This document shows positions 1,132 through 20,000 of a DNA stretch of 20,000 bases, piece after piece (the stretch's first letter is position 1; each line of letters begins with the position of its first letter). Location of the stretch: positions 50,082 through 70,081 of the forward strand of contig QPGO01000299.1 of assembly GCA_008632985.1 (NCBI GenBank), read 5' to 3'. The DNA comes from Psammoneis japonica (Eukaryota). Made by a program: the position numbers and the translations under genes. The notes beneath the pieces were generated by a model that did no database searches, was not told the DNA's origin, and saw nothing but the letters and a program-made list of their open reading frames with translations.

Positions 1132-1461
1132 GTTTTAAATGAGATGATCAAGCCAAACATCAAATTTGTCATTGACAATTATGTTCAACATTTGAACTGA
1201 ATGTTTCATCCCTTGATTTGGAACAAATGCAACCAGGGATGTTGTTTTCAAAGAAAAACACGTAGATTCCTAATTGTGGTTGTTTTTGAAAGCAATGCCA
1301 CCAGTTGTGAACACATGACGAAGGGAAGCAGCATCACCTTTGGAGTGTTGAGGAAGAGGTTTGAAATTTTGCAATGGCAAACTTCCTCTGAGACCTGCTG
1401 CACTGCACAATCACGGCAAACTGCAGGCCTTTGCCACAAGACATGCATTAAGTTGAGGGCA

Positions 1462-2752: not shown

Positions 2753-3065
2753 GGAAAGTGGCCTAAATTCATTGCACACAGCACCAAAAACACAAAAACC
2801 AGCACATGACACAAGAGTGACAAACAATGTTGATTGTCAGGTTCTATGGTGAAGGAAAGCAGACACAAAATGGGAAGAGAGGGGGGTGTTTGAAAGTTAA
2901 AGTTGATTTCTCGTAGTTAAAAAGATGTCTCCATGGATGATTTAATTAACCATCACAGATTAAAAATCATTGCCAGCTGCACAACTAACAAGATTTGAAA
3001 CTATAAAATTGTTGTCTGTAAAAGGAACAAAAATCACTGTGAAAAGGGATGAGTGGATCACCACA

Positions 3066-4472
3066 TTGCGGCCTCTGATGGGTGACCATTGTGAATGTGT
3101 GGAAGTGCACATGGATGACCCATGGCCTTCCCCATGAAAGATCCTTGGGCCTTCCTTAAAACTCTCATGGAGAAATGCAAGTTCAAGCTCAAAGGCACTG
3201 GACCATTGGAATTTCACCTTGGCTGCAACTTCTCTCGTGACTCTGATGGCACACTGTGCCTTGCTCCTCCCAAGCACATTGAGCACATGGGGTTGAAAAA
3301 TTACAAATGCCTTTGTGCAGAGAAGCCTTGCAATGGTGTGCCATCCCCTTTTAAAAAGGGAAACCACCCCAAGCTTGACACCTCCAAACTGCTGCTCCCT
3401 GATGGCATTCATCAATTTCAGTCCTTGGTTGACTCTCTGCTGTGGGCTGTGTTGCTTGGTTGCATTGTCATCACTGTGGCCATCATGTCTCTCTCTGGCT
3501 TCCACATGCCACCCCATCAAGGCCCCTGGATTGTGCCAAACGTGTCTGCAGATGCTTGTCAAAGATGCAACATGGTGCCCTGTGCATGTGCACACTGAGG
3601 AACCCAACCATTTGGACCTCCCCAAGCCTGTGTGCAACTGGGCTCAAACCATGCATGGTGATGTGGAAGAATTTTTTCCTGAAGATGCACCCAAGCCTCT
3701 TGGCAAGTTTGTCACAATGACCCACTGTGTTGATGTGAACTTGTTCTCCATAGCATGCTCACTTGATGCTCCATCACAGGCATCATTCATTTTCTTGACA
3801 AGTTTCTCGCTGATTGGTTCTCCAAGAAACAAGCCACAGTCAAGACTGCAACTTACAAATCTGAATTAGTTGCCACCAGGATGTGTGTTGAACAGATCAT
3901 TGTTCTGTGCATCACATTGCATTGCCTTGGCATCCAAATCCATGACACATGTTAAATGTTCGGGGACAACAAGTCAGTTGTGGACAGTGCTGCCACTGTC
4001 CCGCACTCCAAGTTACACAAGCGACACATGGCCCTCTTGTTCCATCATGTGCTTGTTGCAATTGCCTCCAGTTTCCTTGAGTTCCACTTTGTGGAAGGTT
4101 TCTGCAACCCTGCTGACATCCTCAGCAAACACTGGGGTTGCTCCCAGGTTTAGAACCTCCTCCATCCTCTCATGTTTTAGAACTTCAATCTGACTTTGAA
4201 TCTGTCTCTGTGGACTCCTCAAGCAAACTGGGGAGTGACAGGATTTGAACAAGATTTTAGTTTGTCTTGCAAAATTGTGTGTGCTCTCAGTTCCACATGT
4301 GATGCATGATGCAGTTTGCTTTTGAGCCACTCAGCTTGCAAGAACAACAACAGCAGTGCCGACAACATGACACACATCTTTCAGCTCCTGCAACAGTGAC
4401 TCATCTGCTGTTTAGACAGAGCAGCAAGGAGTTGTTGTTTTCTTCCACCCATTTTTTCTTCAATTTCTGTTG
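3066..4472 (+). mobile_element. 5'-truncated, decayed Ty1/copia retrotransposon (CoDi-like): RT C-terminal half, RNase H, PPT, 3' LTR
   Basis: DHCECVEVHMDD at 3084-3119 (decayed YVDD), KFKLKGTGPLEFHLGCNF, HCVDVNL, DWFSKKQATV, MFGDNKSVVDS, NPADILSKHWG; several frameshifts and stops. Colinear with the minus-strand copy at 19233-20000. Confidence 0.93.
4236..4472 (+). repeat. 3' LTR of the decayed copia, preceded by PPT GGGGAG (4230-4235)
   Basis: Starts TGACAGGATTTGAACA right after GGGGAG. Aligns with gaps to the reverse complement of 19233-19508 up to CTTCAATTTCTGT, where similarity stops. Confidence 0.8.
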
Positions 4473-5649
4473 ACAAATGCAACACACTCAATCAATGACA
4501 ACAAACTCACCATCATGCTGACACATTTAGACAGAGCACAAATGGTGTCACATGTGGAAAAACAGCTGAAATGCTCAATTTTTTGCCTGTCAGACAAAAC
4601 GTGCTGTTGATTTTTGTGGCTCTCAAAAGCTGTCAAGAAAATGCCAACTGCAGAGTTGCCATTGTGAGGTGGTTCCTGGGGCTTCTGACTGTGGCATTCC
4701 TGTGGTGAATTTGCACTGAAGCTGAGTTGTGCTTGTCAAGTTAGCATGGATGCAGCTTCACACATCACATGCCCGCCATTCTCAGCCCAGTGGCAGGGCC
4801 CGCAGCAAAAAAATGAACCATGATTCAGCACAAAAAGCTGAGGGCATGAAAGAAGTCATTTTTTATCTCCTTTTTGATCCTGGTGGCTGCAGCATGTCTG
4901 AGGATGATGATGAGACAACACTTTCATCATTTCCAATCACTTTCAGTTTGAATGAAAAGGGCCCCATTAATTCCAAGGAACTCAAGAGCTGTTTTGTGAA
5001 AGCAGCAGTCTTGTCAGGTGTTGGACCAATGTTTTGGATGCTCCAGGGAAAAGAGTGTGTGAGCGCATCAATGGCAGTCAAGGTTGAACAAACACTGAGA
5101 TGCTTGCCAACTTTGCTTGCTTGGAAAACTGGATTTCCCTGCAGGTTCACCAAACACAACTCTCCTTCTGCAAATTGTGGATCAGCCACTTGGATTGTCC
5201 AAGTCTTTTTTCTTAAGAAATTTGAGAAGCTGGGGGAGTGCCAGCCAGGTTGGAGTGCTGAGTGACAATCCCAAACATGAGTCTGGATCACCTGAGTGGT
5301 GTGGATGTTGGGATGCTTGTCTTTGGCAGAGAGCTTCCCAACAGAACATTCTCCAAGAGAGAGGAGCACCAAAAAGTGGAAAAAGTGGGCCCTGAACCAT
5401 TTACATGAGCTGCATTGAAAAACAAAAGGGAGCACAGCATGTGAGTCAGCACAAAAAAATGATGAAACAGAACTGCTGACACAGAGAGGCTGATCCAATG
5501 ACAGCTTGCACCTTCAATGTTCACAGGAGGAACTCTCAATTTTTTGGCTTGTCTTGTCGTGACATTTTGGGTTCTTCCTTTAGAATGGATGGCAGCATGT
5601 TCAAGAAGATGCTTTTGGCATCCAGCAGCATGAAATGAGCCCAATGGGG

Positions 5650-5830
5650 GTCACAAACACCACAGAGAAAGACAAGATGCAGTCTCCAACTCCAAATCCA
5701 TGGGGGGTCTTTTCCTCCAGACTGGTGGCTCTCTTTTAAATTCTGGCAACTTTTTGATGGCTGGCAAGCAGGAAGAATGGAAAAAAGCTCTGGAGATGCA
5801 CTTCAAGGCAAAAAGGGGAAAAACATGTCA
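5650..5830 (+). pseudogene. Possible fragment of a DNA-transposon protein C-terminal region
   Basis: RQDAVSNSKSMGGLFLQTGGSLLNSGNFLMA...WKKALEMHFKAK resembles a G-x-x-F-x-x-TGG-x-x-LNS-x-D-F pattern recalled from diatom transposase-associated proteins. No catalytic motif seen. Confidence 0.25.
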
Positions 5831-6409
5831 GCAACAATTGGTGCCAAACTCACACAATGCAACACAGCACACCACATGCCATGCTGCCCATGCAAGGAGT
5901 GATGACTGCCCCTGCATTGGTGTGGAAAGTGTGGTGTGATGTCATGGTGATGCAATGTTCACATGAAGGGTTGGATGACAGAACCCTGGGAACTGAACTT
6001 TTGGTTGGAATAGAGAAAATCACAATTCTTTGTTTTTTCATGCAAAATGCCTTTGCAGTGTGGTCTGCATGGCAACACAGGGGCCCTCAAGTTCCAAGCA
6101 GCTGAAAAAGCTCTGCCTGACAATGATGGCAAAATGCAACAATGGTGTTGCTCACTTGGCTTCTTTCTGTTGCAATGTTGTGCACCAGCCCACCCAGCAA
6201 ACAACAACAACAACAGAAAGTGCAAGCTTCTGCAAAGCACCAGAAGGAAGCATTTTGTGATTGATTGTTGCATGAGTTCTACAAAGAATTCTGAGCAAAA
6301 TTGATTGTCAGGTCAGGAGGCTGCAATGAACAGAAAGCTTTTTATTTCATTCTTGCAGCAAACTTGCACTGGTGTGTGTTGATTTGGTCATTGCTTTGCA
6401 ACCCCAAAA

Positions 6410-6940
6410 GAGACCAGAATGTGCTGCATCATGGTCAACCCATCTTGGCTGTCATTGGAGCTTTGTTTCTCAGTGCTTGAATCACACAGAAATTATGTAG
6501 AAAAACAAATTTTGTCAGAGTCAACAAGAAGAAACTTTGTCTCAGTGTTGCCCTCTGTTTCAATCATTTGCATCATTGGGAAGCTTTTTTCTCCACTTTT
6601 TAGTCATGTGTTTTTTGCAAAAAGTTGGAAAAACTCATTTGCCTGGGTCATGTCATCTGACAGTTCACATCAGGACATTTTCACACATCTGCCAGGTGTC
6701 ACTTCACTTGTTTTAGCATTTGCACACAATTTTCTAGGAAAAATCCACTGTTTGAGAATTTACAGAGATTCTTTGTCATTGGTTTGGGGGACATCTTCGG
6801 AAGTGAGACTGTCGAAGAAAGTTACGTAGAATTTGCACTAAAACAGTCTGTCAATCAGTGCGATTGGGGCATTTGGGATCACTGGACAGATCCCATGTGT
6901 TTTTTTGTGTGCGCACAAATTGCACTGGGAAAACCCCCAA
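6410..6940 (-). pseudogene. Possible Ulp1/C48 peptidase-like relic
   Basis: Manual minus-strand translation: VFPV..(frameshift in A run)..THGICPVIPN...KFYVTFFDSL (FFDSL at 6805-6819)...KQSSNDSQDGLTMMQHI with several stops. Motif order resembles P-x(n)-HW / FDSL / Q-x(n)-CG. Confidence 0.3.
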
Positions 6941-7035
6941 ATGCACTGGCGATCAGACCGCCTTCATTGATCTCACTTCCAAAGACGCCCCCCAGGTTGT
7001 CCTCATTTTTGAATGTTTTTTATGTTGTCCATTCA

Positions 7036-7127
7036 CAAAAGTGTGGCAGCCCACATTCAAGACAGTGATTGAATGTTCTGAAAATCCACCTCACAACTGG
7101 CTTGTCTTTTGGGAGCTCTGTGTTCAA
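7036..7127 (+). repeat. Diverged dispersed direct repeat, copy 1 (copy 2 at 8105-8191)
   Basis: Shared blocks GTGTGGCAGC, TCAAGACAGT, AATGTTCTGAAAA, AACTGGCyTGTCTTTTGGrAGCTCTGTGTTCAA in both copies. Confidence 0.85.
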
Positions 7128-7322
7128 AAGGGGTCATTTGCTGCTTTTTTTGCTTAAAGTTGGCCGAATGGCTCATGATTTGCACCATTTTTCCTGAATT
7201 TCACTGTGCTTCACCATGGTAAAAACATCAAGCCACAAATCTGTGACATGGGCAGTCTGTTTGCCCACTCTCCTTTGTTTTGTGTTCATTGTGTGTTAAA
7301 GGTCATGTGTGCTGCACCAACT

Positions 7323-7478
7323 GTTGTGGATGGAAAACTGCATTTTGCTTGGAGAACTGTCAAGATTGCGATCATCATTGTGCTTCGATCACGGCACCTG
7401 TTTGTGGATGGACAACTGCATTTTGCTTGGAGAACTGTCAAGATTGCAATCATCATTGTGCTTTGATCACGGCACCTG
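7323..7478 (+). repeat. Tandem duplication of a 78-bp unit (2 copies)
   Basis: TTGTGGATGGAmAACTGCATTTTGCTTGGAGAACTGTCAAGATTGCrATCATCATTGTGCTTyGATCACGGCACCTG occurs twice with period 78; about 3 internal mismatches, 2 at CpG. Confidence 0.95.
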
Positions 7479-8104
7479 ATGTTCTCCTTTTCTTGCACCA
7501 CTTGGTGTGAACATGAACAATTCTTGTGTTCAACAATGCACACCACAAAGAACCTCATTTAAATGTTGTGGCATTTCTGGGATGAAGGTGGGGATGACCC
7601 CCCTCAAGTGGTCATGAAACAGGCATGAAATCCATGCCCTCAGTTCAAATTTTAGGAATCCTTTCTTTCTTCAGTCTTTCTCTCACATGATGTCTTGAAA
7701 ATGTGATGTCATTTGGTGATCATGATCAATGGGAGTGGCAGCTTCACCAAGACAATGTGGCACCAGATTCTGATTAGATCACAGTGGGAAATGGTCATTC
7801 CATGGTAGAAAAATTGTGAAAAACATGAGCTCTCCAAGACATTGTCTTGTTGCCTGGCCAACAAGTGATCCCAATTGCTTCACGCAAAAGAAAAAGGAGT
7901 GAGACAAAAAAGTGGGTGTCATGTGGTTGATGCAGTCATGTGAATGAGAGGGTGGTGAACTTGCGTGCAAACAAACAAACTTGCATGCACCATCTGAATG
8001 GAATCTGGTGCCCAAATTGCATTTGAGCAACAGTGTTGGCCAACTTGGGAGGGTGGCACCAAAGCCATCCATTGAAAAAATGGGTTGATGTCAATCGTCA
8101 CAGG

Positions 8105-8191
8105 CAAACGTGTGGCAGCGGACAATCAAGACAGTCACCAAATGTTCTGAAAACTCAGAACTGGCCTGTCTTTTGGAAGCTCTGTGTTCAA
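8105..8191 (+). repeat. Diverged dispersed direct repeat, copy 2 (copy 1 at 7036-7127)
   Basis: Same blocks as 7036-7127 with a short indel. Confidence 0.85.
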
Positions 8192-8971
8192 GCATTTCAA
8201 ATTTGTGACAAACACCTGTGTGCAAAATGCAAAAAAAAGGCAAAACAACAATGAACGAGAGCTTGTGGGCTCATGTTGTTCAATGTGGTGTTCATTGTGG
8301 ACTTGTCATCCTGCCATTGCAAGAGATGACAGCCAAGCAATTGACTGGCTGCACAAGTTGGATGCCCAAAAAACTCTGCATTGTTGCTGCAATGCAGAAT
8401 TCTGCTGATGAAGGGTCTGTCCTTTTTGAGTGAAGAAAGGCCCTCTTTGCAACACTGGGGATGGCATTCAGAACCGTAAATCTCACATGCAAGGTGCTGC
8501 AGTGTTGTCAATTGACAACAGCAAAAAACAAAAGCAGCATTGAAGAGTAAAAAGCCCATCAATTTTGGAAACAAAATCAACTTTTACAGAGACACAAAAA
8601 AGGCAGAGGACAGCAGGTTTTTTCCCACTTGCAGCACTTTTTTGTGGCAAAAGCCATGGCAGCAGGCACACCAGTGCACAAAACTAAGTTGAACAGGTCA
8701 TCCAGAGTTGTGTGAGCTGGGCAACATCACAGATGTGAATGTGAACATCACCGGAATGTGCCAACTGCTGTTGGCAGCAGCAGTGTTGTCCTTTGCAACT
8801 GCAGCGCCAGCAGCTGAATTGCTGCCAACACTGCCAAACATTCTTGTGACACTTTTCTGTGGTTCTGTGCACTTTGGACCAAACAACAAGCAAATGGAGT
8901 GGGTGTCAGGTGGATTCCCAGTGTGTGTAGCTTCTTTGGGCACAGATGCAGCTGTTCTGTGTTGCAATTGC

Positions 8972-11631
8972 TGCCTCAACTGTGTCTTAGCCTCCCCTGG
9001 GGCATTGGCCGTGGCTTGATCTGGCGGGTGTGAGGCTTTCGGCTGCGGCATCACCTCTGATCATCGTGCTTGCTTCGTGGACTTTGACACATTGGCCTTG
9101 TTTGGCAACCCATCAGTGGATCTCCCAAAGGCTTTTTTCAGAAACATTTGGGCTTTGTCCAAACCTCACATCACAGCACATCTTCAGTCTCTTGGCCCAA
9201 TGCTTCAGAGTCAATCTGTGTTGGAGCAGTCCATTCAGTTGAACTAACTTGATGCCCCAGATCATGCCCTGGCAGAATGATTGGATCGTGACATTGTGCA
9301 ATTTTCTCTGGCAGCTGCCAAGAAATGCCATGTTCATTGTGAACCTGACCTGGTTGGTTGAGCTCACTGATCTGAGATGCCGGGCACACACATTCACTGG
9401 GTTGGTTTCCATGATGTGAACCAGGTTGGATTGTGTCTCACAAATTTGCTCTGTTCGAGAACATCTTCATGTCTCCTTTCTCATTCCAGACACCTTGCAA
9501 AGGTGCCAAGAGGCCCTGTGCTCCACTCAAGCAGAATGCAAGAAAGTGGCAGCCGAGAGTGTTGGCTGTCGTGAATGTGAGATGTCCACAAGGATCACAG
9601 AATTCGATTTTGAAGGTGCCAAATCCTCCCGTGCCCAGGCCACCATCCTGCAAAATGTCAGGAAAGCCAAAGAAATGAAAAAATTGTTCAAAAAGATCAA
9701 TGCATGCAATGCTCAATGGGATGATGGCATCAACAACGTGCAGGTTCCTCAAAATCCTGCTGTTCCCTCAAAGGAATGTCATGACTGGATGACCATCGAT
9801 GCACCGGAAGACATCGCCACTGCTCTTCATCAGAGAAACCAAAAACATTTTGGTCAAGCAAAAGGCACTCTACCAACTGAACCTCCTCCATCTGTGGATC
9901 CACGTTATGATGGTGACACCACAATGGCAGAACTTATCTTGGATGGCAAGTGCAATGCAACCACTCTGAATGATGCTGCCGCATTGTTCATTCAACATTT
10001 GTGGCAGCAGTCTACGGTGTCAGTTTCTAATTTGTTGTCAGCATCCGACCTTGAAGGGAAAATCAGATGTTGGAAAGAATCCACTTCCACATCAATTTAC
10101 TCCGGCCTTGACCTTGGTCATTGGAAGGCAATGCATGCATCTCATAAATTTTCTGAGTCAGTTGCCTCTGACAGCACCCCCACAGCTGACAAGGATGCTT
10201 TGGATGAGGTCCAACGTTCTCTCATTCAGGTCCGGTTGAATCTGTTGAATTGTGCTCTCAGGTGGGGTTGCTCCTTTGACTGCTGGAAAGATGTTGTGAA
10301 CATCATGATTTTCAAAGAACTGGGAAACAACAAGATTTGTCACCTCTGTGTTGTGCACACACATGAAGCAGACTTCCAGTTAATCTCAAGTGTTAAGTGG
10401 CGTGCCTTGGCTCAAAACATGGAGAAACGCAGGCTTTGTGATCCTGGCATCTACAGCACTCATCCCTTCTTAAATGCCAAAGATCCCATGCAACTTGAAG
10501 AAATGATGCTTGAGATCAGCAGAGCTTCCTGTAAGACTGCCGTGCACAGTGACGATGATTGCACATCTTGTCATGACCACAACATCCCTGCGTTGGTTGC
10601 AATTGAAAGCCAGAGCAATGGAACACCAAGGGAAGTCACCCAAGTTGCCAGATCCATGATTCACAAGGCTTGTCATTGGCTGAAAACAGTGTTGGGTTTG
10701 CCTCGTCCTTCACACTCTCACTTTGAAGAATTTCCAACATGTGGCTCAGGACAGGGCAGTGGCAACTTTCCATTCTGCTGGAACCAAATCTGCAACAGTC
10801 TGTTTGCAACATTCAATCAACATGCACACGGTGCATTTTTTGAGACTCCAGATCACTCCTTGTCCCTCAGAGTGTTTGCATGTGGATGCATTGACAATGT
10901 GGGTGCTGGACCTAGCCTTTAAGATGCAGGAGGACAGTCAACTTTGGTGTGACCTTTTTGAATGCCACTGGCCATGAGTTGGAGCTTCCAAAATGTTCTT
11001 TTCACGCAATGGAGTGGATGTTCACCAACAACAGCAAACCTTACCTTCGAGCATGCAATGATGAGATCAACATTGAAATTTCATTGGCAGATTGCATGAC
11101 TGTGAGGTCCAGCAAACAATTGTCAGCATGTTCTTCTCACAAGACACTTGGACACTGTAAAGCTCCAGCAGGAACCCAAAAGACTCAATTTTCTGCCCTC
11201 AAGAAAAAGAGTGACAATGTGGCTCTGTTTTTGTTTGATCATGTCCCCTTGACCGGCATGAGGCTTGGACTCATTGCTTTGCCTGCCATCTGTCTTTGAT
11301 CACGTGTGTTCTGCCAAACACCCACTTCATGAGAAAAGAACTGCAAGAAGTCCAAAGGAAAGCCATTCGCAGCATCTTTGCAAAGTGCGGATGCAATTGC
11401 AACATGAAACGTGACATTCTATTTGATCTGCACTCATTGGGAGGTGGCGGTTTCAGGTCTTTGGATGTGGAGGAGGGAGTGGCACAGATTTTACAGTTTC
11501 TCCGACATTGACATGGCTTGGGGCAACCACAGGCTTTGTCCCAGATTGCGGCAGCATGGACTGCAGTGAGACAATGACTGGCACATGATGGAGGTGGTGC
11601 TCGAGTCATGCACATTCACCAATCAAGAGAT
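8972..11631 (+). pseudogene. LINE ORF2 part 1: endonuclease C-terminus and reverse transcriptase
   Basis: ORF fragments 9426..10922, 10949..11299 and 11296..11511 plus upstream frames, broken by stops and frameshifts; motifs as above. Confidence 0.9.
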
Positions 11632-11789
11632 TTACGGACCAGCGGTGTCGGGACAATCTAACGGATGTCTAGGACAGATGACAATCGTGTGCTAAAGTGA
11701 GCAAAGGAGAGATCATCGGATCTCTCCATGCTGTCTATGCTAGTCTGTCCGACACAAGGGAGTGCACTCCCCATCTTGGATGTCTGTCA
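11632..11789 (-). repeat. 3' LTR (158 bp)
   Basis: Direct repeat of 13945-14113 with an 11-bp indel and about 11 substituted bases. Confidence 0.95.
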
Positions 11790-11798
11790 CCCTCCCCT
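11790..11798 (-). other. Polypurine tract AGGGGAGGG
   Basis: CCCTCCCCT on the + strand directly abuts the 3' LTR. Confidence 0.85.
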
Positions 11799-12492
11799 GA
11801 TGAGCAATGCAATGCTCAACAAGAAAGAAAAAGATGATCCGAATAAAAAGAGAGGACCAGAACAGCAGGAATGAAGAGAAAGAACCAAAAGAAATGGCCA
11901 AGACTTGGTCCGTAAACACGACAACAATCAACGACAATGTCCCATCCCCAAACGACAAGCGGCTGTCGGGAATGAGAGGCATCCAACCACAGTCAGTGCA
12001 TCGGTCTTCGACAAAAAATGTCAAAGGTAGTTCCCAATAAATCTTTTTGGATAAATTGAGTCGTGCACCAAAGGATAATTTCTTCAATCCACAAATAATC
12101 GACGGCAATGGGACATTCTGGCGAGTCACAATGTTGCCAAAAAATGTCATCAGAAGAGATGGGGCCAAAAAATGGAAATCCACCATGGCAGATGATGCGG
12201 CGAAAATGAAGCAATGGCAATCCACCTGACAAACCAATGCTTCTACCACCATTTGTGTAGCCCCTGAAAAACATGTTGGGCAAACAAAATAGATCATAAA
12301 AGTCGCTCAACGTCGGAAGAACATTTTTTGATCAGGGGAGGGATTCCTGTGGCACAGAGGAAGCATGTCAGGCCATTGAGAACTCAATCTTTGACCAAGA
12401 CACCTTGCTTGATGATCATGTTTTGCACGCCGTGCGATGCTCACCTCACATCGGCAATGGTGGACAGGTCCGGAGTGCCGTGAAAAGTGCAA

Positions 12493-13740
12493 TTAGATGC
12501 GACAACGGTCCTGACAACAGAGGAAAGAGATGAAATAGCGGGAGGTGACGAGACTCGGTGGCCCTCTTTCAGGGTCACCCTGCTTCCATTGGTCTTGATC
12601 GGACAAGAGAAGGAATGGCAGCATCGTACATCCGAAATTAATGACGGCCGAACCAAAAATCCGAATTCGAATCTCAACTTGACAACCAACAAAGTGCTGG
12701 CGGCATCCATGTGTAACAGACCACGGCGGCGCATGGGTGGCAAGCAACTCGGGTGTAACCTTGACAACAGAGGATGGTCCATAACTGGGGTGAATGTGGC
12801 CATCTTTGTATGGAACAATAGAATGGCCAGAAACAAAAAACTTTGGGGTCTTGAGCAGGCAGGAGCAGAGTTCGGCAGGAAGTGCCACTGATTTGGCAGG
12901 GATTGCAAGGGATCCCGCATCAACATCTGTAGATTGCTCACCCACAGATTCCACAACAGACATGGTAGACTCGACATTCAAGGAATGAGCATCCATGGGG
13001 TCCATCCGAGTGTCCACAGTGAGTGCATCTGTAACATGACACACAACAGCAGTGTCAGTGTCACATGCAGCAGACCCAGTAACTGGGCACAACTTGGACT
13101 CAGCACATGCATGAGAACTCGAAGTGCTCTTCAATCCATTAGTCATGGCTTGCCCATGCTCGTTTGGACCAGGCAAATGAGTTGCTAAGGCCTTGGCAAA
13201 GTCTTCAGGAGCAGGACCTGTAGCAGCAACCGGTGGAGATACAGAACTTGAGGTTTGAGATGACTTTCCATGTGGAGCATCGGACATGTCGTCCCAACAT
13301 GCAAAAGATGGAAAATCCGGACGGAAGAAGAGAAATGTGGTCTCAACATAGACCGTCATGGTGTCGTGACCGTCTGAAATTGCCTTGATCATAGCCTTCT
13401 GAAGATTGGTGAGGTTTAGACGAATCGGAGAAGCTTCAGGAGCAGCTACAAAGAGAGGAGCTTTATCCATAATCGGACCAATCTGTGTAAGATCCTTAGT
13501 CAGTGTAGCCTTGGGGATGATGAGGTCATGAACGATCTTGTGACGGAGAGTGGCAACAGCATGGCTCTTGAGGCCTTGAGGAGTAAATCCATCCAGAAGT
13601 TCTTTGGGAGCAGGCATCTCGTCGGAATTAAGGACGTTCAGGTAATGATGGGCATCTGGTGAGAGATGCTGGGGGTTGAATGCAACCAGTGTCGACTTGA
13701 TCTTGGTCAAATCGAAGGCGTTTTGATTTTTGTTCACCAT
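12493..13740 (-). CDS. 415-aa ORF in the gag position of the non-autonomous element; function unrecognised, possibly decayed gag-like
   Basis: ACCATGG start about 200 bp downstream of the PBS, sense to the element. The frame continues past the TAA as 12307..12492. No CCHC knuckle recognised. Confidence 0.55.
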   Translation of the reverse strand: MVNKNQNAFDLTKIKSTLVAFNPQHLSPDAHHYLNVLNSDEMPAPKELLDGFTPQGLKSHAVATLRHKIVHDLIIPKATLTKDLTQIGPIMDKAPLFVAAPEASPIRLNLTNLQKAMIKAISDGHDTMTVYVETTFLFFRPDFPSFACWDDMSDAPHGKSSQTSSSVSPPVAATGPAPEDFAKALATHLPGPNEHGQAMTNGLKSTSSSHACAESKLCPVTGSAACDTDTAVVCHVTDALTVDTRMDPMDAHSLNVESTMSVVESVGEQSTDVDAGSLAIPAKSVALPAELCSCLLKTPKFFVSGHSIVPYKDGHIHPSYGPSSVVKVTPELLATHAPPWSVTHGCRQHFVGCQVEIRIRIFGSAVINFGCTMLPFLLLSDQDQWKQGDPERGPPSLVTSRYFISFLCCQDRCRI

Positions 13741-13934
13741 GGTTGCGCGGGAAAAAAAATCAAATTCCTGCGTAGAGCTCTGGTGTGTGTTCTACGGTGG
13801 TCGTTTGATCACAAATCAAGAGGTGAAAAAATAGCTGTGACAATGATGACGATTTCAACAAAGAAAAGGTCGCCAAAATCACACAACAGGCGTTGCAACA
13901 GAGGAGCACAGAGGAAGAAGAACAGCGCACTGCT

Positions 13935-13944
13935 GCTCATGACC
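13935..13944 (-). other. Primer-binding site GGTCATGAGC (GGTTATG-type, complementary to an internal part of tRNA-Met)
   Basis: Abuts the 5' LTR end; one substitution from GGTTATGAGC, similar to the half-tRNA-iMet PBS of Drosophila copia (GGTTATGGGC...). Confidence 0.7.
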
Positions 13945-14113
13945 TTTTGGACTAGCGGCATCGGGACAATCTAATGGATGTCTAGGACAGATGATAATCG
14001 TGTGCTAGATGAGAAAGAAAGTGAGCAAAGGAGAGATCATCGGATCTCTCCATGCTGTCTGTGCCAGTCCGTCCGACACAAGGGAGTGCACTCCCCATCT
14101 CGGATGTCTGTCA
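13945..14113 (-). repeat. 5' LTR (169 bp)
   Basis: Begins TGACAGACATCC on the minus strand at 14113; repeat of 11632-11789. Confidence 0.95.
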
Positions 14114-14118
14114 GAGAT

Positions 14119-15704
14119 CCGTTGGGTAAACTGTTGTCATTGTATTTGAATGTTTTGACATTGTCCAACATTGCTTCACCAGATGGCATGTCTGTTGACC
14201 AGTTTAAAATTGATGGCCAGCAGTCTCTTCACAGCAGCTGCTTGACTTTGAATCCCACCGAACAGTCTCGCCCATCTGCTGGGGCCTGGAAAGTGTGGCA
14301 TTGTGCATGTTCCTTTTTCTGCAAAGAGGATTTGTTGAAGTTAAGATGTCCATTGTGGCAGTGGGTGGTGCCGACCACCGAGATGCACATGTCCCACACA
14401 GCACACTATGAGCCTTCCAAAGAGCATCTCTGCATTTGCACAGATTCAGGTTTCCAGATGTTCCCTGTGTTCAATGGAAGCACTGCATCCAACAATGCTT
14501 TGGAGACTGTCCCTGACATCTCTCCTGCAGCTTCTCCAGTGTTGGTGACTGCCACCCACGCCAGTCATTGGCGAATCATTTCCCCTGCCACATTGGTTTC
14601 CCTGCCCTCCGCTCCTCTGGTTCCACAGGATTTCATGGACATGTTGCAATCTCTCCCCAAATGGGAGTCCATCTTGTTGTTTGATGATCTGACATTGCAC
14701 ATGTCCGTGTTTGAGATTGCAGACCTGATCGTCCATCATCATGCCTCTGTGGGCAGTGACGGATCAGTTCTGAATTTTTGGGGTGCATTTGGTTGGACAC
14801 TTGCAGTTGACCGCACTCCACTGGTGGATTGTGCCGGCCTGGTTTTTGGTTTTTGACTGTCATCTTATCAAGCCGAAGCATGCGGAATGTTGTTTTTCCT
14901 CCGTTTCCTGTTCCAGTTGTTGAAATGCTGTTGCAAAATGCTCTCCAAAGGTGTGGACATGTGCTGTGATGACTCCTCACTTGTGCGCAATGTTTCCAAT
15001 TTCCAGGATTGCCCCTGTCTGACCAACAATGAGGCAGTTCAAGGTGCCAGAGACCATCACCAGCAACATCACATTGCCAATGCTCCATCCGCAGTCTGGG
15101 ATGTCTTGCATGAAATTTTTCTTTCCATGCAACAAATTTTTGAAATGTCTCATGACAAGCAGCATGGCAACAAAGTTTCTGTCCACTGGGTCAAGGGACA
15201 CCAAGATGACACGACACCCACAGATTCCTTGACCTCACCAGCTTGGTTGAATGTTAGAGCCAACAGGCTGGCAGGATGGCACCAAGGTCATTGCTCCAGT
15301 GACACCCTTTTAGCCCCTCTCATGCCCCAATTGCAATGCCAACCTGATTGTCACTGGTGCCACAATGTCAGCCACCCCCCGGTTCTGGTTCTTCACATGA
15401 AAGACAAGCATGGCTGGTCTGACAAAATAATCTGTGAGTCAATCAATTGGGCAGCACATGCCAAACCAATGTCTCAAAACATCCGTCGGAAAGTCAGCAC
15501 AGTTAAACTGGTGCAGGAACTTCTCCCCACAAACAAAATTGTCCACCGTTGCAACCCCACTTGCCTTGATTGCTGCACTCACTGTCAAGATCCAATGGAG
15601 GACAGAGACCACATTCTACATTGTCTGCACAATGAAGCATGGTGCCAAAAATTTCTGCAAGGCCTGCCCAAGAAGTGTGATGACATCCACACATCACTGT
15701 CCTT
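14119..15704 (+). pseudogene. LINE ORF2 part 2: post-RT region, RNase H, Zn finger (copy A), truncated near 15704
   Basis: LYLNVLTLSNIASPDG, SDGSV..GAFGW, AEACGML, HWVKGHQDD, EDRDHILHC; in-frame TGA at 14854-14856. Confidence 0.9.
14690..15704 (+). repeat. ~1015-bp direct repeat, copy A (copy B at 16145-17159)
   Basis: Ungapped match at offset 1455; roughly 20 mismatches by eye. Confidence 0.97.
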
Positions 15705-16144
15705 TTTTTTACACCGGCCTGAGTTTTTTGTTTTTGTTTTTGTTTTTGTTTGCATGTGCTGTGCCTTCACTTGCAACTGCACTGGCTTCAAAAAAGATTA
15801 GACACACCCTCCTTTTCTCCAGCAATGCTGGAGTTTTTCGGAGAGGACCCAAAGCGTGCTTCAGGATCTAGAGATCCATTGCCATTGCGTTTTTCTACTT
15901 CTTTTTCCGTGACGTCTTGAATCTTTCTGAATCTTCAACAGCCAATGACGTCAGATGCATTGACAGCCGTTGAAAGATCTTTTTTCGATCTTTTTTGTCG
16001 ATTTTTTTAGCTCGGAAAACAGCCTGCGGCACTGATGAGTGAAAGCGAAAGCTCACATCATCAAGCTTTGCACGCTAGGCAACTCTCTAATGGGATTGCT
16101 GTCATGCCAAAGGTTGTCTGTACATTAGACAACCCCGACACCAG
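15705..16144. other. 440-bp non-LINE insert between the duplicated segments
   Basis: Starts with a T run and (TTTTTG)n at 15724-15751; retains CpG and TpA; contains the inverted repeat CTCCAGCA-A-TGCTGGAG (15817-15833) and two TGACGTC motifs; no convincing ORF. Confidence 0.7.
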
Positions 16145-17740
16145 TGACATTGCACATGTCCGTGTTTGAGATTGCAGACCTGATCGTCCATCATCATGCC
16201 TCTGTGGGCAGTGACGGATCAGTTCTGAATTTTTGGGGTGCATTTGGTTGGACACTTGCAGTTGACCGCACTCCACTGGTGGATTGTGCCGGCCTGGTTT
16301 TTGGTTTTTGACCATCATCTTATCAAGCCGAAGCATGCGGAATGTTGTTTTTCCTCCTTTTCCTGTTCCAATTGTTGAAATGCTGTTGCAAAATGCTCTC
16401 CAAAGGTGTGGACATGTGCTGTGATGACTCCTCACTTGTGCACAATGTTTCCAATTTCCAGGATTGCCCCTGTCTGACCAACGATGAGGCAGTTCAAGGT
16501 GCCAGAGACCATCACTGGCAACATCACATTGCCAATGCTCCATCCGCAGTCTGGGACGTCTTGCATGAAATTTTTCTTTCCATGCAACAAATTTTTGAAA
16601 TGTCTCATGACAAGCAGCATGGCAACAAAGTTTCTGTCCACTGGGTCAAGGGACACCAAGATGACACGACACCCACAGATTCCTTGACCTCACCAGCTTG
16701 GTTGAATGTTAGAGCCGACAGGCTGGCAGGATGGCACCAAGGTCATTGCTCCAGTGACACCCTTTTAGCCCCTCTCATGCCCCAATTGCAATGCCAACCT
16801 GATTGTCACTGGTGCCACAATGTCAGCCACCCCCCGGTTCTGGTTCTTCACATGAAAGACAAGCATGGCTGGTCTGACAAAGCAATCTGTGAGTCAATCA
16901 ATTGGGCAGCACATGCCAAACCAATGTCTCAAAACATCCGCCGGAAAGTCAGCACAGTTAAACTGGTGCAGGAACTTCTCCCCACAAACAAAATTGTCCA
17001 CCGTTGCAACCCCACTTGCCCCGATTGCTGCACTCACTGTGAAGATCCAATGGAGGACAGAGACCACATTCTACATTGTCTGCACAATGAAGCATGGTGC
17101 CAAAAATTTCTACAAAGCCTGCACAAGAAGTGTGATGACATCCACACATCACAGTCCTTGCAAGATTTGATTCTTTCTGCCATGGAGTCATGGGCCCGGG
17201 GGGAGTTGCTTTGCGCCAAGGATCTTCACTGCAGTGTGGTGTCAGTTTTCCAGTCTCAGGAGCAAATCGGATGGCGTCAACCATCAAATGGATGTTTCTC
17301 CAAAGATTGGAACGTGACTCAAACATCGTATCTTTTAACAAGTTGCACTTGCCAGAACCTTTCTGACCATGAGAAGTGACTGGATTGGGCAGCTGCAATT
17401 GGCGCAATTGTGTTTGGGAGCAGTGGTGGGAGCCATGGGACAACCACAATGATGTAGTCCATGGGCATGATGAAGAAACCAGGCAGTCCTCCCAGCATTG
17501 GGATGCCAAGGCGGAGGTAAAAGCTGTGTGCTTGAAGTCAGATGAGTGCCTGGTGAGAGACAGGGAGCATCTGTTGGATTTGGTTGAAGAGCACTTGACA
17601 CATTCTACACATCGTCTCCACAATTGGTTGGCTGTGGTTAGGCCAATGTTCAAATCAAACATTTGAGAAGCTAAACAGTTTGCTGCCAGAGGTGCGAGAA
17701 CCATTGCAAGTTATTTTGGTGCATCATCACCCTCAGGCTA
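16145..17740 (+). pseudogene. LINE ORF2 part 3: duplicated RNase H and Zn finger (copy B) continuing to the C-terminus
   Basis: ORFs 16342..17379 and 17376..17666, then read-through to the TAG at 17738-17740. Confidence 0.9.
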
Positions 17741-18114
17741 GTCCCTGTGTGCTTTTGGTGCACTGTCAGTGTGCTGGGGGGTGGGGGTGGGTTGGCTTGT
17801 TGCCAGAGTTGCAGGGTGGAAGTGTGGCAGCACTTTAAATGTAGAAGTTTGGTTTTGTTTTGTGTTTTTGTGTTGTAATTGCTGATGGATGTTGCCAGAA
17901 CACACCAACTTGAAACACTCTTGGCTCTGTCTGACATGTCATTCCCAGTTGAGATTTTCTCCGATTGCGATGGAAAGTGGCAGTTTCTCCTGCACAGATC
18001 AAAACTGAATGTGGAATCTCCTCTTCCTCTTCCTGATTTACTTTTCTACGCAAGCACCCATTGACAGTTTCTACGTGGAATTCTGCGTGAATTTTGCACC
18101 GAAAACTCGTCACC

Positions 18115-19232
18115 ATGACGAATTTTCTGCCGCAGCAGGCTGGCCCCACCGGTGAGTCTCCCCTGAGTCCTCCCCCTGACAAGGACACTGCTCCATCCAC
18201 TCCAACCAGAACTGGATCGAGAAAGCCCAAAAGCTCTACGTTAAAAGAAATTGCCATCCGTTTTGAACTCACCTCTTCCAACGACAATGCATCCATGGTG
18301 TTGGCAATGGGCCATGCTGCGATTCTGAATGCCCTTCAACAGAAAGCTTCCCAAGATCCTTTGATGAACAAGATGACAATTGTGTTTAATTGTGGCCTAA
18401 AAATGCCCGAAATCAATGTTGTTGAGTGGACTTCTGGCTCACTCATTCTCAACACTTCGTTGTGCACCGCATTGGAGGTTCCCGCCGTCGCTCCCCCATG
18501 TTTGTGATTGCTCATCAAATCCATGCATCTCTGTCGATCGCTGATGTCAGGAAGATTCCCTTCATCAACAAAGTGCTAAAAGACCAGGGCATCCACATGT
18601 GCTGCCACAAATGGGACGAGACCATTGTGGACCTCACCTGAGTCACTCTTCCAGTTGACTTGCTCCCAAAGCATCATCCCGTTGATTTGGCTCAAAAACT
18701 GTTGATGGCCCTACTTCCTCAATGCAGCTGCTCAAAACTGCCTTTTTGCCTGATCATCCAGTCAGCTTCATCCCTGAACGACCCTTCTTTATGCACCAAT
18801 TTTTGTGCTGTCGAAACTCCCTGCGACCACACTAAAGAGATGATTTTTGCCTTGTTGGAAGTGTTGAAAGATCACCCCCCAGCACTTGTTCTATCCCATT
18901 GGCATCACTCTCAACCAGACGCCTTTGACAAAGCGGCAAGAAAACAACGAAAAACCAGTGTGCCAAGCTTCACGTCATTCCGTTGCTCTGTCATGTGGAG
19001 GCACTCTCCTTTTATTTGTCTGACACCATTAAAGCAGTTCAAGGAGTGATCAATGTTGTTCCATCCAAGAAGCTCTCTGCCATCCCCAGGTGCAACATTT
19101 TGGTGGATGAGGACTTTTTCCATCAAGCCAAACACTGCATTGCAGAACAAGCACCTTCCGGAATGGTTTCAGGCCATCACCGCAGATGCAGGTGTCCCAG
19201 AAAGCCAACCCAAACCAATGATCCCAGGCATC
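18115..19232 (+). pseudogene. Putative ORF1 of a second LINE (Ambal-like), frameshifted and cut by the copia LTR
   Basis: CACCATG start, Pro/Ser-rich N-terminus (SPPPDK), then IAHQIHASLSIADVRKIPFINKVLKDQGIHMCCHKWDE, AFDKAARKQ, FYLSDTIKAVQGVINVVPS...RCNILVDEDFF across ORFs 18094, 18426, 18660, 18983 and 19053. Pattern recalled from diatom LINE ORF1 proteins. Confidence 0.6.
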
Positions 19233-19508
19233 TGACAGAAATTGAAGGCAAATGGCAAGAATTCAAACAACAACTCCTTGCTGCTGTCTAAATGGCAGAT
19301 GAGTCTCCGCTCAGAGACCGTCACAGGAGCCGAAAGACGTGCAAGTCGGTATAATCGGGCTACTGTCATTGTTCTTGTGAGCCTTGTGGCTCGAAAGCAA
19401 ACTACATCGCGCGCAAACGCGCGGAACTAAAGCACACAAAACTGTGCACGGTGAACTAAACAGCGTGCGACATTTTGCGCGCACCTGAATCCTGTTCAAA
19501 TCCTGTCA
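19233..19508 (-). repeat. 3' LTR (276 bp), TGACAG...CTGTCA
   Basis: Perfect 6-bp terminal inverted repeat, starts right after the PPT, homologous to 4236-4472. Confidence 0.88.
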
Positions 19509-20000
19509 CTCCCCAGTTTGCTTGAGGAGCCACAGAAACAGATTCGACTTCGGATGGAATGAAGTTCCAGAACATGAGGGGGCGGAGAAGGTCCCAGATT
19601 TGGGAGCAACCCCAATGCTTGCTGAGAATGTCAGCAGGATTGCGGGAGCCTTCGATGAAGTGGAACTCAAGGTGACCAGAGGCAATTGCCTCATGCACAC
19701 GGTGGAACGATAGTGCGGTGTGTCGCTTGTGTAACTTGGAGTGCGGGATGGTGGCACTGTCTACAACCGACTTGTTGTCACCGAACATGTAACTGACATT
19801 GCGGATCGGGACGCCAAGGCAGCGCAGGGTGATGCGCAGGTCGACAATCTGCTCGACACAAGTCCTTGCAGCAACAAATTCAGACCCGCAGGTCGCAGTC
19901 TCCACGGTGGCTTGCTTCTTAGAGAACCAATCAGCCGGGAATTTGTTGAGGAAGTGGAGCATTCCCATGACAGAGCGTCCGTTGAGCATGCAATGGCACA
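19456..20000 (-). CDS. Copia Pol C-terminus (RNase H), partial; frame runs into the LTR
   Basis: ORF 19456..19989 with Ty1/copia RNase H motifs; three usually conserved Tyr appear as Cys. Confidence 0.85.
   Translation of the reverse strand, partial: CHCMLNGRSVMGMLHFLNKFPADWFSKKQATVETATCGSEFVAARTCVEQIVDLRITLRCLGVPIRNVSYMFGDNKSVVDSATIPHSKLHKRHTALSFHRVHEAIASGHLEFHFIEGSRNPADILSKHWGCSQIWDLLRPLMFWNFIPSEVESVSVAPQANWGVTGFEQDSGARKMSHAV

What the first reader, a model, noticed from the sequence alone, without database searches (positions are those of the whole stretch)
11632..14113. LTR pair shows TpA changes arise in DNA after integration, on both strands
Established: the two LTRs are identical at insertion. 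Seen, left vs right LTR: gacCAgc/gacTAgc, gaCAat/gaTAat, tcTAtg/tcTGtg, gcTAgt/gcCAgt (four TA vs CA/TG); aaCGg/aaTGg, tcTGt/tcCGt, ctTGg/ctCGg and the terminal taCGg/ttTGg (CG vs TG); ggTGtc/ggCAtc (ancestral TA or CG). Nearly every substitution is at TpA or CpG, and each LTR has its own TA losses. Inference: this argues against RNA editing or RT error, which would be strand-biased and largely copied into both LTRs. Direction is taken from the protein motifs, not from the pair itself.
Basis: partly seen in the sequence, partly recalled or inferred. Interest (0 to 1): 0.8.

Follow-up and report, generated by a model that had tools for sequence, protein, structure and literature searches.

The report
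LTR pair differs only at YpR steps
Two end-repeats of one small retrotransposon differ almost only at TA, CG, CA and TG dinucleotides, in a stretch of eukaryotic DNA that has lost nearly all its TA, which fits a recently described DNA-level TA-to-CA/TG mutation process but does not by itself show the direction of change.

Summary
Positions 11632-14113 are a 2.5-kb LTR element with 158- and 169-nt LTRs and a perfect 5-bp target duplication, GAGAT. The LTRs differ by 11 substitutions and one 11-nt indel. All 10 transitions lie in pyrimidine-purine (YpR) steps, which make up 48% of columns (p about 5e-4).

The window is extreme in composition: TpA o/e 0.16, CpG 0.33, CpA and TpG about 1.65.

The differences between the LTRs must have arisen after integration. 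The general direction TA to CA/TG is supported elsewhere in the window. In two copia fragments, 6 of 9 conserved Tyr codons are now Cys or His, while 0 of 14 conserved His codons became Tyr.

Within the LTR pair the direction is not shown. Contigs of the highly repeated family have CA at the one TA site I could polarise (13995), and TG at one "CpG" site (14070). Those two therefore look like gains. Eight of the 10 transitions are C/T on one strand.

A 2026 preprint reports TpA to CpA/TpG hypermutation of integrated viral DNA in Bigelowiella natans. This is a likely new instance, in retrotransposons, of an organism whose copia relatives are from diatoms. The scan had noted a similar TpA/CpA+TpG skew once before, in a phage (e1-5320246).

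The parts
11627..11631 (.). Left copy of the 5-bp target-site duplication, GAGAT
   Evidence: Identical to 14114-14118.
11632..11789 (-). Left LTR, 158 nt. It is the 3' LTR if the element's sense strand is the minus strand. It lacks an 11-nt stretch that the right LTR and a family contig carry.
   Evidence: table 5c shows a family contig that carries the 11 nt.
11790..11798 (-). Polypurine tract: AGGGGAGGG on the minus strand, directly abutting the LTR start TGACAG
   Evidence: Read from the sequence. That it serves as a PPT is inferred.
11790..13944 (-). Internal region, 2155 nt, with no recognisable gag or pol. TpA o/e 0.30, CpG o/e 0.62.
   Evidence: It is repeated in the run's contigs over its whole length (table 2).
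12493..13740 (-). Longest open frame of the element: 415 codons from the first Met. It matches no known family.
   Evidence: No Pfam family among 24736 models. No homologue at E <= 0.001. Atlas best score 0.83, a lead only.
13945..14113 (-). Right LTR, 169 nt. It is the 5' LTR in the element's sense orientation.
14007..14017 (.). 11-nt stretch present only in the right LTR. Its placement is ambiguous by a few bases.
14114..14118 (.). Right copy of the target-site duplication, GAGAT
9420..11626 (+). Left part of the older, heavily decayed element into which the LTR element inserted. It holds long open frames. TpA o/e 0.11, CpG o/e 0.28.
   Evidence: No Pfam hit. I read it as a non-LTR retroelement only from recalled motifs, so that label is inference.
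14119..15801 (+). Right part of the same host element. TpA o/e 0.11, CpG o/e 0.25.
3122..4177 (+). Copia-type fragment A, used to polarise the mutation direction. TpA o/e 0.13 and CpG o/e 0.09, measured over 3122-4470.
   Evidence: tblastn with database homologues. Codon fates. Composition.
19456..19998 (-). Copia-type fragment B. It runs off the end of the window. TpA o/e 0.28 but CpG o/e 0.83, measured over 19235-19998.

Best explanation
Positions 11632-14113 are a short, non-autonomous LTR retrotransposon of a highly repeated family. It inserted once, making a 5-bp duplication, into an older decayed retroelement.

Since insertion its two LTRs have diverged almost only by transitions at pyrimidine-purine steps. 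The local DNA is subject to two context-dependent mutation pressures that act on double-stranded genomic DNA:
- TpA to CpA/TpG. This is the process reported for integrated viral DNA in Bigelowiella natans, where adenine deamination at TpA is proposed.
- CpG to TpG/CpA, presumably through deamination of methylated cytosine.

Because TA and CG are short-lived, the pair holds a mix of losses of TA/CG, fresh gains of TA/CG from the abundant CA/TG, and CA-to-TG flips that pass through a TA or CG intermediate.

Shown: the element's anatomy, the restriction of changes to YpR steps, the depletion, and the TA to CA/TG and CG to CA/TG direction in the copia fragments.

Inferred: that the same process produced the LTR differences, the enzyme involved, and the methylation.
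For: Anatomy:
- Two direct repeats with an identical GAGAT on both sides.
- A purine run abuts the TG end of the LTR on the minus strand.
- The family is highly repeated. 1372 contigs of run X1 were laid. Summed depth is 8032 and 17017 in the two fullest LTR bins, against 35 and 59 for the contigs that carry the unique junctions.

Context of the differences:
- 10 of 10 transitions fall in YpR columns and 0 in the 82 other columns.

Depletion:
- Window: TpA o/e 0.16, CpG 0.33, CpA 1.64, TpG 1.69.
- The young element has 0.33 and 0.63. Its older host has 0.11 and 0.25-0.28. So depletion grows with age.

Direction:
- At codons where at least 60% of homologues agree, 9 conserved Tyr are now Cys 4, His 2, Tyr 2, Phe 1.
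- 14 conserved His are all still His (Fisher p = 8e-4).
- 21 conserved Arg are now His 7, Cys 3, Leu 1, Arg 10.

Both strands:
- Both Tyr-to-Cys and Tyr-to-His occur.
- CpA and TpG counts are near equal in each oriented element: 240/233, 184/192, 230/206, 146/156.

Short-lived intermediates:
- CA/TG is the commonest adjacent double difference. It accounts for 13 doublets in the copia pair, 2 of 4 in the 98% identical pair and 1 of 1 in the LTR pair.
- Three window-TG versus family-CA doublets lie inside the element.

Independent precedent (Results and Discussion read):
- In B. natans mutation-accumulation lines, 230 of 231 mutations in two integrated viral regions were A-to-G or T-to-C, and the paper states that all of these fell on TpA.
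[quoted passage not shown] This window meets both thresholds.
Against: The direction is not shown in the pair itself.

Of the 40 rows shown's table, out of 760 places, four lie in the LTRs:
- 13995 has T where 95% of family depth has C, which looks like a CA-to-TA gain.
- 14070 has C where 99% has T, which looks like a TG-to-CG gain.
- 13948 has T where 88% has C, a CpG loss.
- 13947 has T where 84% has G, and the left LTR has A there.

Over the whole element, the shown rows give:
- 5 CA/TG-to-TA changes against 1 TA-to-TG
- 6 CpG losses against 3 CpG gains
- 3 CA-to-TG doublets
- 5 transitions outside YpR
- 6 transversions

The shown rows are the best-supported ones. That choice favours sites where the family is uniform, and so favours gains over losses. 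The bias is my inference, and 720 rows were not shown.

Eight of 10 LTR transitions are C/T on the + strand.

Half of the differences involve CpG, which the B. natans report does not mention (0 occurrences of 'CpG').

No host genes or whole genome were available, so I could not test whether the depletion is specific to repeats.
Confidence: 0.65

Rival explanations
1. The differences are ordinary C-to-T changes. Cytosine deaminates at methylated CpG and at CpA. The TA states in the pair are then derived gains, and the pair says nothing about TA loss.
For: - The family majority is CA at 13995.
- 5 CA/TG-to-TA changes against 1 TA-to-TG among the shown rows for this element.
- 8 of 10 LTR transitions are C/T on one strand.
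- TGG-to-TAG changes occur in copia fragment A.
Against: - It would enrich TpA, yet TpA o/e is 0.10-0.33 everywhere in the window and falls with element age.
- Conserved Tyr codons became Cys or His at 6 of 9 codons, while no His became Tyr.
- 14070 is a T-to-C change.
- The shown rows are biased towards gains.
Confidence: 0.17
2. One LTR was partly overwritten by ectopic gene conversion from other copies of this abundant family. The differences would then be imported family polymorphisms, not point mutations that arose in place.
For: - Hundreds of LTR-equivalents of contig depth exist.
- The T at 13995 carries about 5% of family depth, so other copies may share it.
- The 11-nt stretch differs between the LTRs but is present in a family contig (table 5c).
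Against: - The differences are scattered singly along the LTR and not in one tract.
- The C at 14070 carries only 0.6% of family depth, so it is essentially private.
- Conversion would not explain the restriction to YpR steps unless the family's own variation had the same cause.
Confidence: 0.1
3. The changes arose before integration, by editing of the element's RNA (ADAR-like A-to-I at UpA) or by reverse-transcriptase or cDNA-deaminase errors.
For: - The strand split of 8:2 in the pair.
- By recalled knowledge, ADAR prefers a 5' U. The B. natans preprint says the same.
Against: - By the established mechanism of LTR synthesis, both LTRs are copied from one template. Changes made before integration would therefore be shared, not different.
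- The matching target duplication excludes a recombinant of two elements.
- CpA and TpG excess are equal in every oriented element.
- Both Tyr-to-Cys and Tyr-to-His occur.
- De novo TpA changes in integrated DNA were seen directly in B. natans lines.
Confidence: 0.04
4. The TA deficit and the LTR differences are an artefact of assembly or base-calling.
For: Only one public run holds the stretch, and it may be the source of the assembly.
Against: - Contigs built from that run reproduce the left junction with 0 differences over 11000-11670.
- They reproduce the right junction with 2 differences over 14087-14700 (table 8).
- The Tyr-to-Cys/His pattern follows codon logic.
Confidence: 0.03

Closest known systems
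TpA-targeted hypermutation of integrated viral DNA in Bigelowiella natans (Mettrop et al., bioRxiv 10.64898/2026.01.13.699255; abstract, Results and Discussion read)
   Same: - Both show TpA depletion with CpA+TpG enrichment in clustered regions. This window's Rho values pass that paper's cluster thresholds.
- The direction is TA to CA/TG, with both products.
- Both affect foreign or repeated DNA. Reverse-transcriptase Pfams were enriched among that paper's TpA-poor genes.
- The process acts on integrated DNA.
   Different: - Here the targets are retrotransposons, not NCLDV or virophage inserts.
- CpG is depleted as well, and half of the LTR differences involve CpG. That paper does not discuss CpG.
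- Gains of TA/CG and CA-to-TG doublets are seen here.
- The organism is unknown. It is probably not B. natans, since the named copia relatives are from diatoms.
- No de novo mutations were observed here.
Repeat-induced point mutation (RIP) of fungi
   Same: Both are DNA-level, context-dependent transition mutagenesis that degrades repeated elements and skews dinucleotide content. Both involve the same four dinucleotides.
   Different: RIP turns CpA into TpA, so it enriches TpA and depletes CpA/TpG (recalled, and as stated in the abstract listing of PMC2621366). This window shows the opposite skew.
CpG decay by deamination of 5-methylcytosine in silenced transposons
   Same: CG-versus-TG differences in the LTRs. 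CpG o/e falls to 0.09-0.33 in older elements. Conserved Arg became His or Cys at 10 of 21 codons.
   Different: It does not explain the TpA loss. Copia fragment B has lost TpA (o/e 0.28) while keeping CpG (o/e 0.83), so the two processes are separable. Methylation was not measured.
Imprints of ADAR or APOBEC editing in retroelements
   Same: Clusters of transitions in retroelements with a neighbour preference.
   Different: Those imprints are made before integration and on one strand. Here the LTRs differ from each other and both products are equally frequent.

Membership tests
LTR retrotransposon | Two long terminal direct repeats | tested here: met
   158 and 169 nt, with 147 of 158 aligned columns identical.
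LTR retrotransposon | Short target-site duplication flanking the pair | tested here: met
   GAGAT on both sides, 5 of 5 bases identical.
LTR retrotransposon | TG...CA termini | tested here: inconclusive
   On the sense (minus) strand the LTR starts with TG. It ends ...GTAA or ...AAAA in this copy and ...GCAA in the family majority.
LTR retrotransposon | Polypurine tract next to the 3' LTR, and a tRNA primer-binding site next to the 5' LTR | tested here: inconclusive
   AGGGGAGGG abuts the LTR. No TGG-type primer site is seen after the 5' LTR, and no tRNA set of the organism was available.
LTR retrotransposon | gag and pol genes | tested here: not met
   No Pfam family for any internal frame and no homologue of the 415-aa frame. 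The copy is non-autonomous or degraded.
LTR retrotransposon | Dispersed multi-copy family | tested here: met
   1372 contigs of run X1 were laid on the stretch. All internal bins carry depth of 748 or more, against 35-59 for the unique junction contigs.
TpA-targeted DNA hypermutation (B. natans type) | Long-term signature: Rho TpA <= 0.43 together with Rho CpA+TpG >= 1.52 | tested here: met
   Window: TpA 0.16, CpA 1.64, TpG 1.69. The young element itself has 0.33 and 1.40/1.47, so it passes only the TpA threshold.
TpA-targeted DNA hypermutation (B. natans type) | Direction A:T to G:C at TpA, giving both TpG and CpA | tested here: met
   Met in the copia fragments: Tyr to Cys 4, Tyr to His 2, out of 9 conserved Tyr, and His to Tyr 0 of 14. 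Not shown for the LTR pair.
TpA-targeted DNA hypermutation (B. natans type) | Mutations fall (almost) only on TpA | tested here: not met
   In the LTR pair, 4 of 10 transitions are CG versus TG. At least one polarised change is TG to CG and one is CA to TA. A second process is needed, or the process is broader.
TpA-targeted DNA hypermutation (B. natans type) | Aimed at foreign or repeated DNA while host genes are spared | not testable with these tools
   No whole genome is held. The window contains no recognisable host gene.
TpA-targeted DNA hypermutation (B. natans type) | De novo occurrence in cell lineages | not testable with these tools
   Only one run, kept as contigs, holds the stretch.
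Fungal RIP | CpA to TpA, with TpA enrichment in repeats | tested here: not met
   TpA o/e is 0.10-0.33 in all repeats of the window.

The most novel reading that the evidence does not exclude
A strand-symmetric, DNA-level defence that converts TpA to CpA/TpG operates on retrotransposons in a lineage far from the chlorarachniophyte where it was first seen, possibly a diatom. It would be a mirror image of fungal RIP. It acts beside CpG decay, so all four pyrimidine-purine steps cycle. TA and CG become transient, CA and TG flip into each other, stop codons TAA and TAG vanish, and LTR-based dating is inflated several-fold.
Probability: 0.4. Interest if true: 0.75.

Novelty: new member of a known kind. 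Interest (0 to 1): 0.6.

Why it matters
If TpA-directed mutation of integrated DNA also acts on retrotransposons and outside Bigelowiella, it is a widespread genome-defence or mutational process, not a curiosity of one alga.

It would also have practical consequences:
- Decayed elements lose similarity to protein families. No Pfam hit was found for 15 of 16 frames tried, and the single hit was below its family's cut-off.
- They keep long open frames, because TAA and TAG disappear (162 and 156 per strand, against 521 and 464 TGA).
- LTR divergence overstates age. Here it is 11 of 158 columns overall but 1 of 82 outside YpR steps.

LTR pairs with matching target duplications are a natural, reference-free assay for post-integration mutation spectra, provided the direction is taken from sister copies.

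Tried and rejected
- **Whole genome of the window:** none is held.
- **Other copies of the LTR in public collections:**
  - A 25-nt degenerate LTR core pattern gave 0 matches in metagenome contigs.
  - The same pattern gave 0 matches in viral contigs.
  - A 19-nt LTR palindrome gave 3 metagenome loci. They share only that motif and are unrelated.
- **Sequencing runs:**
  - Only X1 holds the stretch. X2 and X3, from the same sample, hold next to none of it.
  - No RNA holder is listed, so nothing can be said on expression.
- **Laying contigs:**
  - It gave the family majority at only four LTR positions.
  - 720 of 760 'other letter' rows were not shown and the cap is one call. Seven LTR sites therefore remain unpolarised.
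  - No row appeared for the left LTR. This is uninformative, because short family contigs can sit on whichever LTR fits them better.
- **Internal 415-aa frame:** no Pfam family, no homologue, and an Atlas best score of 0.83, which is below the level that means anything.
- **Host-element frames:** no Pfam hit at E <= 0.1 or 0.01 apart from two sub-threshold chance-level hits. The 355-aa frame has no homologue. My reading of RNase H and zinc-finger motifs there is recall only.
- **Organism identity:**
  - It was not established.
  - The named relatives of the copia fragment are Fistulifera solaris (68% identity) and Skeletonema marinoi (60%). The other close relatives come from unnamed metagenome records.
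- **A single dual A/C deaminase acting uniformly at all YpR steps:** rejected on arithmetic. It predicts (TA/X)*(CG/X) = 1/4, where X = CA+TG. The observed value is 0.054*0.087 = 0.005 (counts). TA and CG must therefore each be about an order of magnitude more mutable than CA/TG.
- **Earlier scan notes:** none exist for this genome or this sequence. One note describes a TpA/CpA+TpG skew in a phage.
- **Literature:**
  - Five full-text searches were run.
  - They found no report other than the B. natans preprint of TpA-to-CpA/TpG mutation of repeats.
  - They found none for diatoms.
  - The preprint's supplements are closed and may hold details on retroelement-bearing clusters.
Full report
**1. 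What is there**

Reading the region and searching for repeats shows two direct repeats. A global alignment sets them at 11632-11789 (158 nt) and 13945-14113 (169 nt). Immediately outside them the same five bases, GAGAT, occur at 11627-11631 and 14114-14118.

On the minus strand, the repeat begins with TG and is directly preceded by AGGGGAGGG. The longest internal frame, 12493-13740 (415 codons from its first Met), also lies on the minus strand. I therefore read the element as a minus-oriented LTR retrotransposon of 2482 bp with a 5-bp target duplication.

It has no recognisable gag or pol:
- No Pfam family for any of the internal frames tried.
- No homologue of the 415-aa frame at E <= 0.001.
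- An Atlas best score of 0.83, which is not meaningful.

The family is abundant in the one public run that holds this DNA (X1). 1372 contigs were laid at 80% likeness or more. Summed contig depth was 4532 to 17017 in the LTR bins and 748 to 6968 in the internal bins. The two contigs that carry the unique junctions have depths of 35 and 59. The tool warns that depth is not copy number, so I say only that the family is highly repeated.

The element sits inside an older, heavily decayed element, at 9420-11626 and 14119-15801, that has long open frames but no detectable family.

**2. The observation**

A family contig carries the extra 11 nt, so the left LTR probably lost them (table 5c).

Ten substitutions are transitions and one is a transversion (11634 A against 13947 T). 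All ten transitions lie in pyrimidine-purine (YpR) steps:
- four are CG versus TG;
- three are CA versus TA;
- one is TA versus TG;
- one is an adjacent pair, TG versus CA.

YpR steps cover 76 of 158 aligned columns. Ten transitions in those columns against none in the other 82 gives Fisher p = 4.8e-4. The restriction to these four dinucleotides is therefore real.

**3. The setting**

The whole window is extreme in composition: TpA observed/expected 0.16, CpG 0.33, CpA 1.64, TpG 1.69. By element:

| Element | TpA o/e | CpG o/e |
|---|---|---|
| Young LTR element | 0.33 | 0.63 |
| Host element | 0.11 | 0.25-0.28 |
| Unassigned stretch 5001-9000 | 0.10 | 0.12 |
| Copia fragment A | 0.13 | 0.09 |
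| Copia fragment B | 0.28 | 0.83 |

The deficits of TA and CG roughly equal the excess of CA and TG. Depletion grows with apparent age. Fragment B shows that TA loss can run ahead of CpG loss, so TA loss is not a by-product of CpG decay.

**4. Direction**

A pair of LTRs cannot give direction, so I used two outgroups.

(a) Protein homologues.
- The copia-type frame at 19456-19998 has thousands of database relatives (9007 at E <= 0.001; the best 150 were used).
- tblastn of these 150 against the window covers two copia fragments.
- I scored codons with at least 15 aligned homologues of which at least 60% agree.
- The 9 conserved Tyr codons are now Cys (4), His (2), Tyr (2) and Phe (1).
- The 14 conserved His codons are all still His.
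- The 21 conserved Arg codons are now His (7), Cys (3), Leu (1) and Arg (10).
- Tyr to Cys/His at 6 of 9 against His to Tyr at 0 of 14 gives p = 8e-4.
- So in this window TA has gone to TG and to CA, and CG has gone to CA and TG. One Tyr-to-Cys change is shared by both fragments and one is private to fragment B.
- The reverse also happens. Two TGG-to-TAG changes and one TTT-to-TTA change occur in fragment A.

(b) The family majority.
- One search showed 40 of 760 'other letter' places. Four of them lie in the right LTR.
- 13995: the window has T, and 7518 of 7898 of depth has C.
- 14070: the window has C, and 10907 of 10970 has T.
- 13948: the window has T, and 2118 of 2405 has C.
- 13947: the window has T, 2022 of 2405 has G, and the left LTR has A.
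- Taken at face value, the right LTR gained a TA (CA to TA), gained a CG (TG to CG) and lost a CG. The left LTR gained a TA (TG to TA).
- None of the four polarised positions is a TA loss.
- Over the whole element, the shown rows give 5 gains of TA against 1 loss, 6 CpG losses against 3 gains, 3 family-CA to window-TG doublets, 5 transitions outside YpR and 6 transversions.

Two cautions apply to (b).
- The rows shown are the best supported, meaning sites where the family is nearly uniform. A TA that decays independently in many copies to CA or TG would not be uniform and would be hidden. The shown rows therefore favour gains. This bias is my inference.
- About 5% of family depth has T at 13995. 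With TA loss an order of magnitude faster than gain, a TA-bearing ancestor that lost the TA in the left LTR is not much less likely than a gain in the right LTR.
- For 14070 (0.6%), the gain reading is firm.

**5. Strands**

In the pair, 8 of 10 transitions are C/T on the + strand (two-sided p = 0.11). The four TA-related differences split 3:1. The pair alone therefore shows neither symmetry nor asymmetry.

Symmetry is better supported by composition. CpA and TpG counts are near equal in each oriented element: 240/233, 184/192, 141/130, 230/206, 146/156 and 68/67. Both Tyr-to-Cys and Tyr-to-His occur. Sense-strand RNA editing would give one product only.

**6. Doublets**

CA versus TG is the commonest adjacent double difference in the window's repeat pairs:
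- 13 in the copia pair (about 73% identical);
- 2 of the 4 doublets in the 98% identical pair 14690-15704 / 16145-17159;
- 1 in the LTR pair.

Three more doublets separate this element from its family. The simplest reading is two steps through a short-lived TA or CG.

A single deaminase acting equally on all YpR steps cannot give the observed equilibrium. It predicts (TA/X)(CG/X) = 0.25, where X = CA+TG. The observed value is about 0.005 (counts). TA and CG must therefore each be roughly ten times more mutable than CA/TG.

**7. Mechanism**

Best explanation, at about 0.65:
- After integration, the LTRs diverged through DNA-level, context-dependent transitions.
- Two pressures drive them: TpA to CpA/TpG and CpG to TpG/CpA.
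- Back-mutations from the very abundant CA/TG contribute visible gains and flips.
- That the differences arose after integration follows from the textbook mechanism of LTR synthesis plus the matching target duplication.
- The enzyme is inferred, not shown. Candidates are adenine deamination at TpA, as proposed for B. natans, or a miscoding modified base.

Rivals are ordinary C-to-T change with the TA states as gains (0.17), ectopic gene conversion (0.10), pre-integration editing or RT error (0.04) and artefact (0.03). Their evidence is given in the Rival explanations section.

**8. What is known**

A full-text search found one directly relevant paper: Mettrop et al., bioRxiv 10.64898/2026.01.13.699255. 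I read its abstract, Results and Discussion and searched its text. It reports the following.
- In B. natans mutation-accumulation lines, 231 of 302 nuclear mutations fell in two integrated viral regions.
- 230 of these 231 were A-to-G or T-to-C, and the paper states that all of these fell on TpA.
- RT and endonuclease-RT Pfams were enriched among TpA-poor genes.
- An ADAT2-like deaminase is proposed as a candidate.
- The text has 0 occurrences of 'CpG', 'LTR' or 'retrotranspos'.

Four further searches found only fungal RIP papers and unrelated work. I found no report for diatoms.

This window passes the paper's cluster thresholds. The organism is unknown. The only named relatives of the copia fragment are from the diatoms Fistulifera solaris and Skeletonema marinoi. 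No predicted protein of the collection matches the abundant LTR-element frame or the host-element frame. This makes a well-annotated genome such as B. natans less likely, though that is weak inference.

**9. Verdict**

The changes did arise after integration at the DNA level, and TA to CA/TG is the prevailing direction in this window. The LTR pair itself does not show TA loss on both strands, and at least one TA site and one CG site in it look like gains.
- The phenomenon belongs to a kind described in 2026. Here it appears in retrotransposons, together with CpG decay and CA/TG flips, and probably in another lineage.
- Interest is 0.6.

Noticed in passing
window 1-20000: TAA and TAG are rare (96 and 66 on the + strand, 95 and 61 on the - strand) against 521 and 464 TGA. 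Long stop-free frames therefore overlap on both strands, for example 14633-15190 (-) with 14857-15801 (+). They are not evidence of genes.
   Followed up: partly
window 3748-4470 vs 19996-19235; 14690-15704 vs 16145-17159: CA-versus-TG adjacent double differences are the commonest doublet in the window's repeat pairs (13 and 2). One of them turns a Gln codon into Trp in the 98% identical pair.
   Followed up: partly
window 19235-19998: Copia fragment B has lost most of its TpA (o/e 0.28) but kept CpG (o/e 0.83). Fragment A (3122-4470) has lost both (0.13 and 0.09). The two decays are separable.
   Followed up: partly
window 14690-15704 and 16145-17159: A 1015-nt direct duplication, 98% identical, with a spacing of 1455 nt, lies inside the host element. 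Both copies carry the same long frame.
   Followed up: no
window 7324-7478: Two tandem copies of a 77-78-nt unit differ at 3 positions. Two of the three are CG versus CA/TG.
   Followed up: no
window 11711-11732 and 11758-11771 (same in the right LTR): Each LTR holds two perfect palindromes: GGAGAGATC-ATCG-GATCTCTCC and GGGAGTGCACTCCC. Both are identical in the two LTRs although they contain CG and TG/CA steps. The second occurs by chance in three unrelated metagenome contigs (L001-L003).
   Followed up: partly
window 5001-9000: This 4-kb stretch has no assignable element and the strongest skew in the window: TpA o/e 0.10, CpG 0.12, CpA 1.82, TpG 1.78.
   Followed up: no
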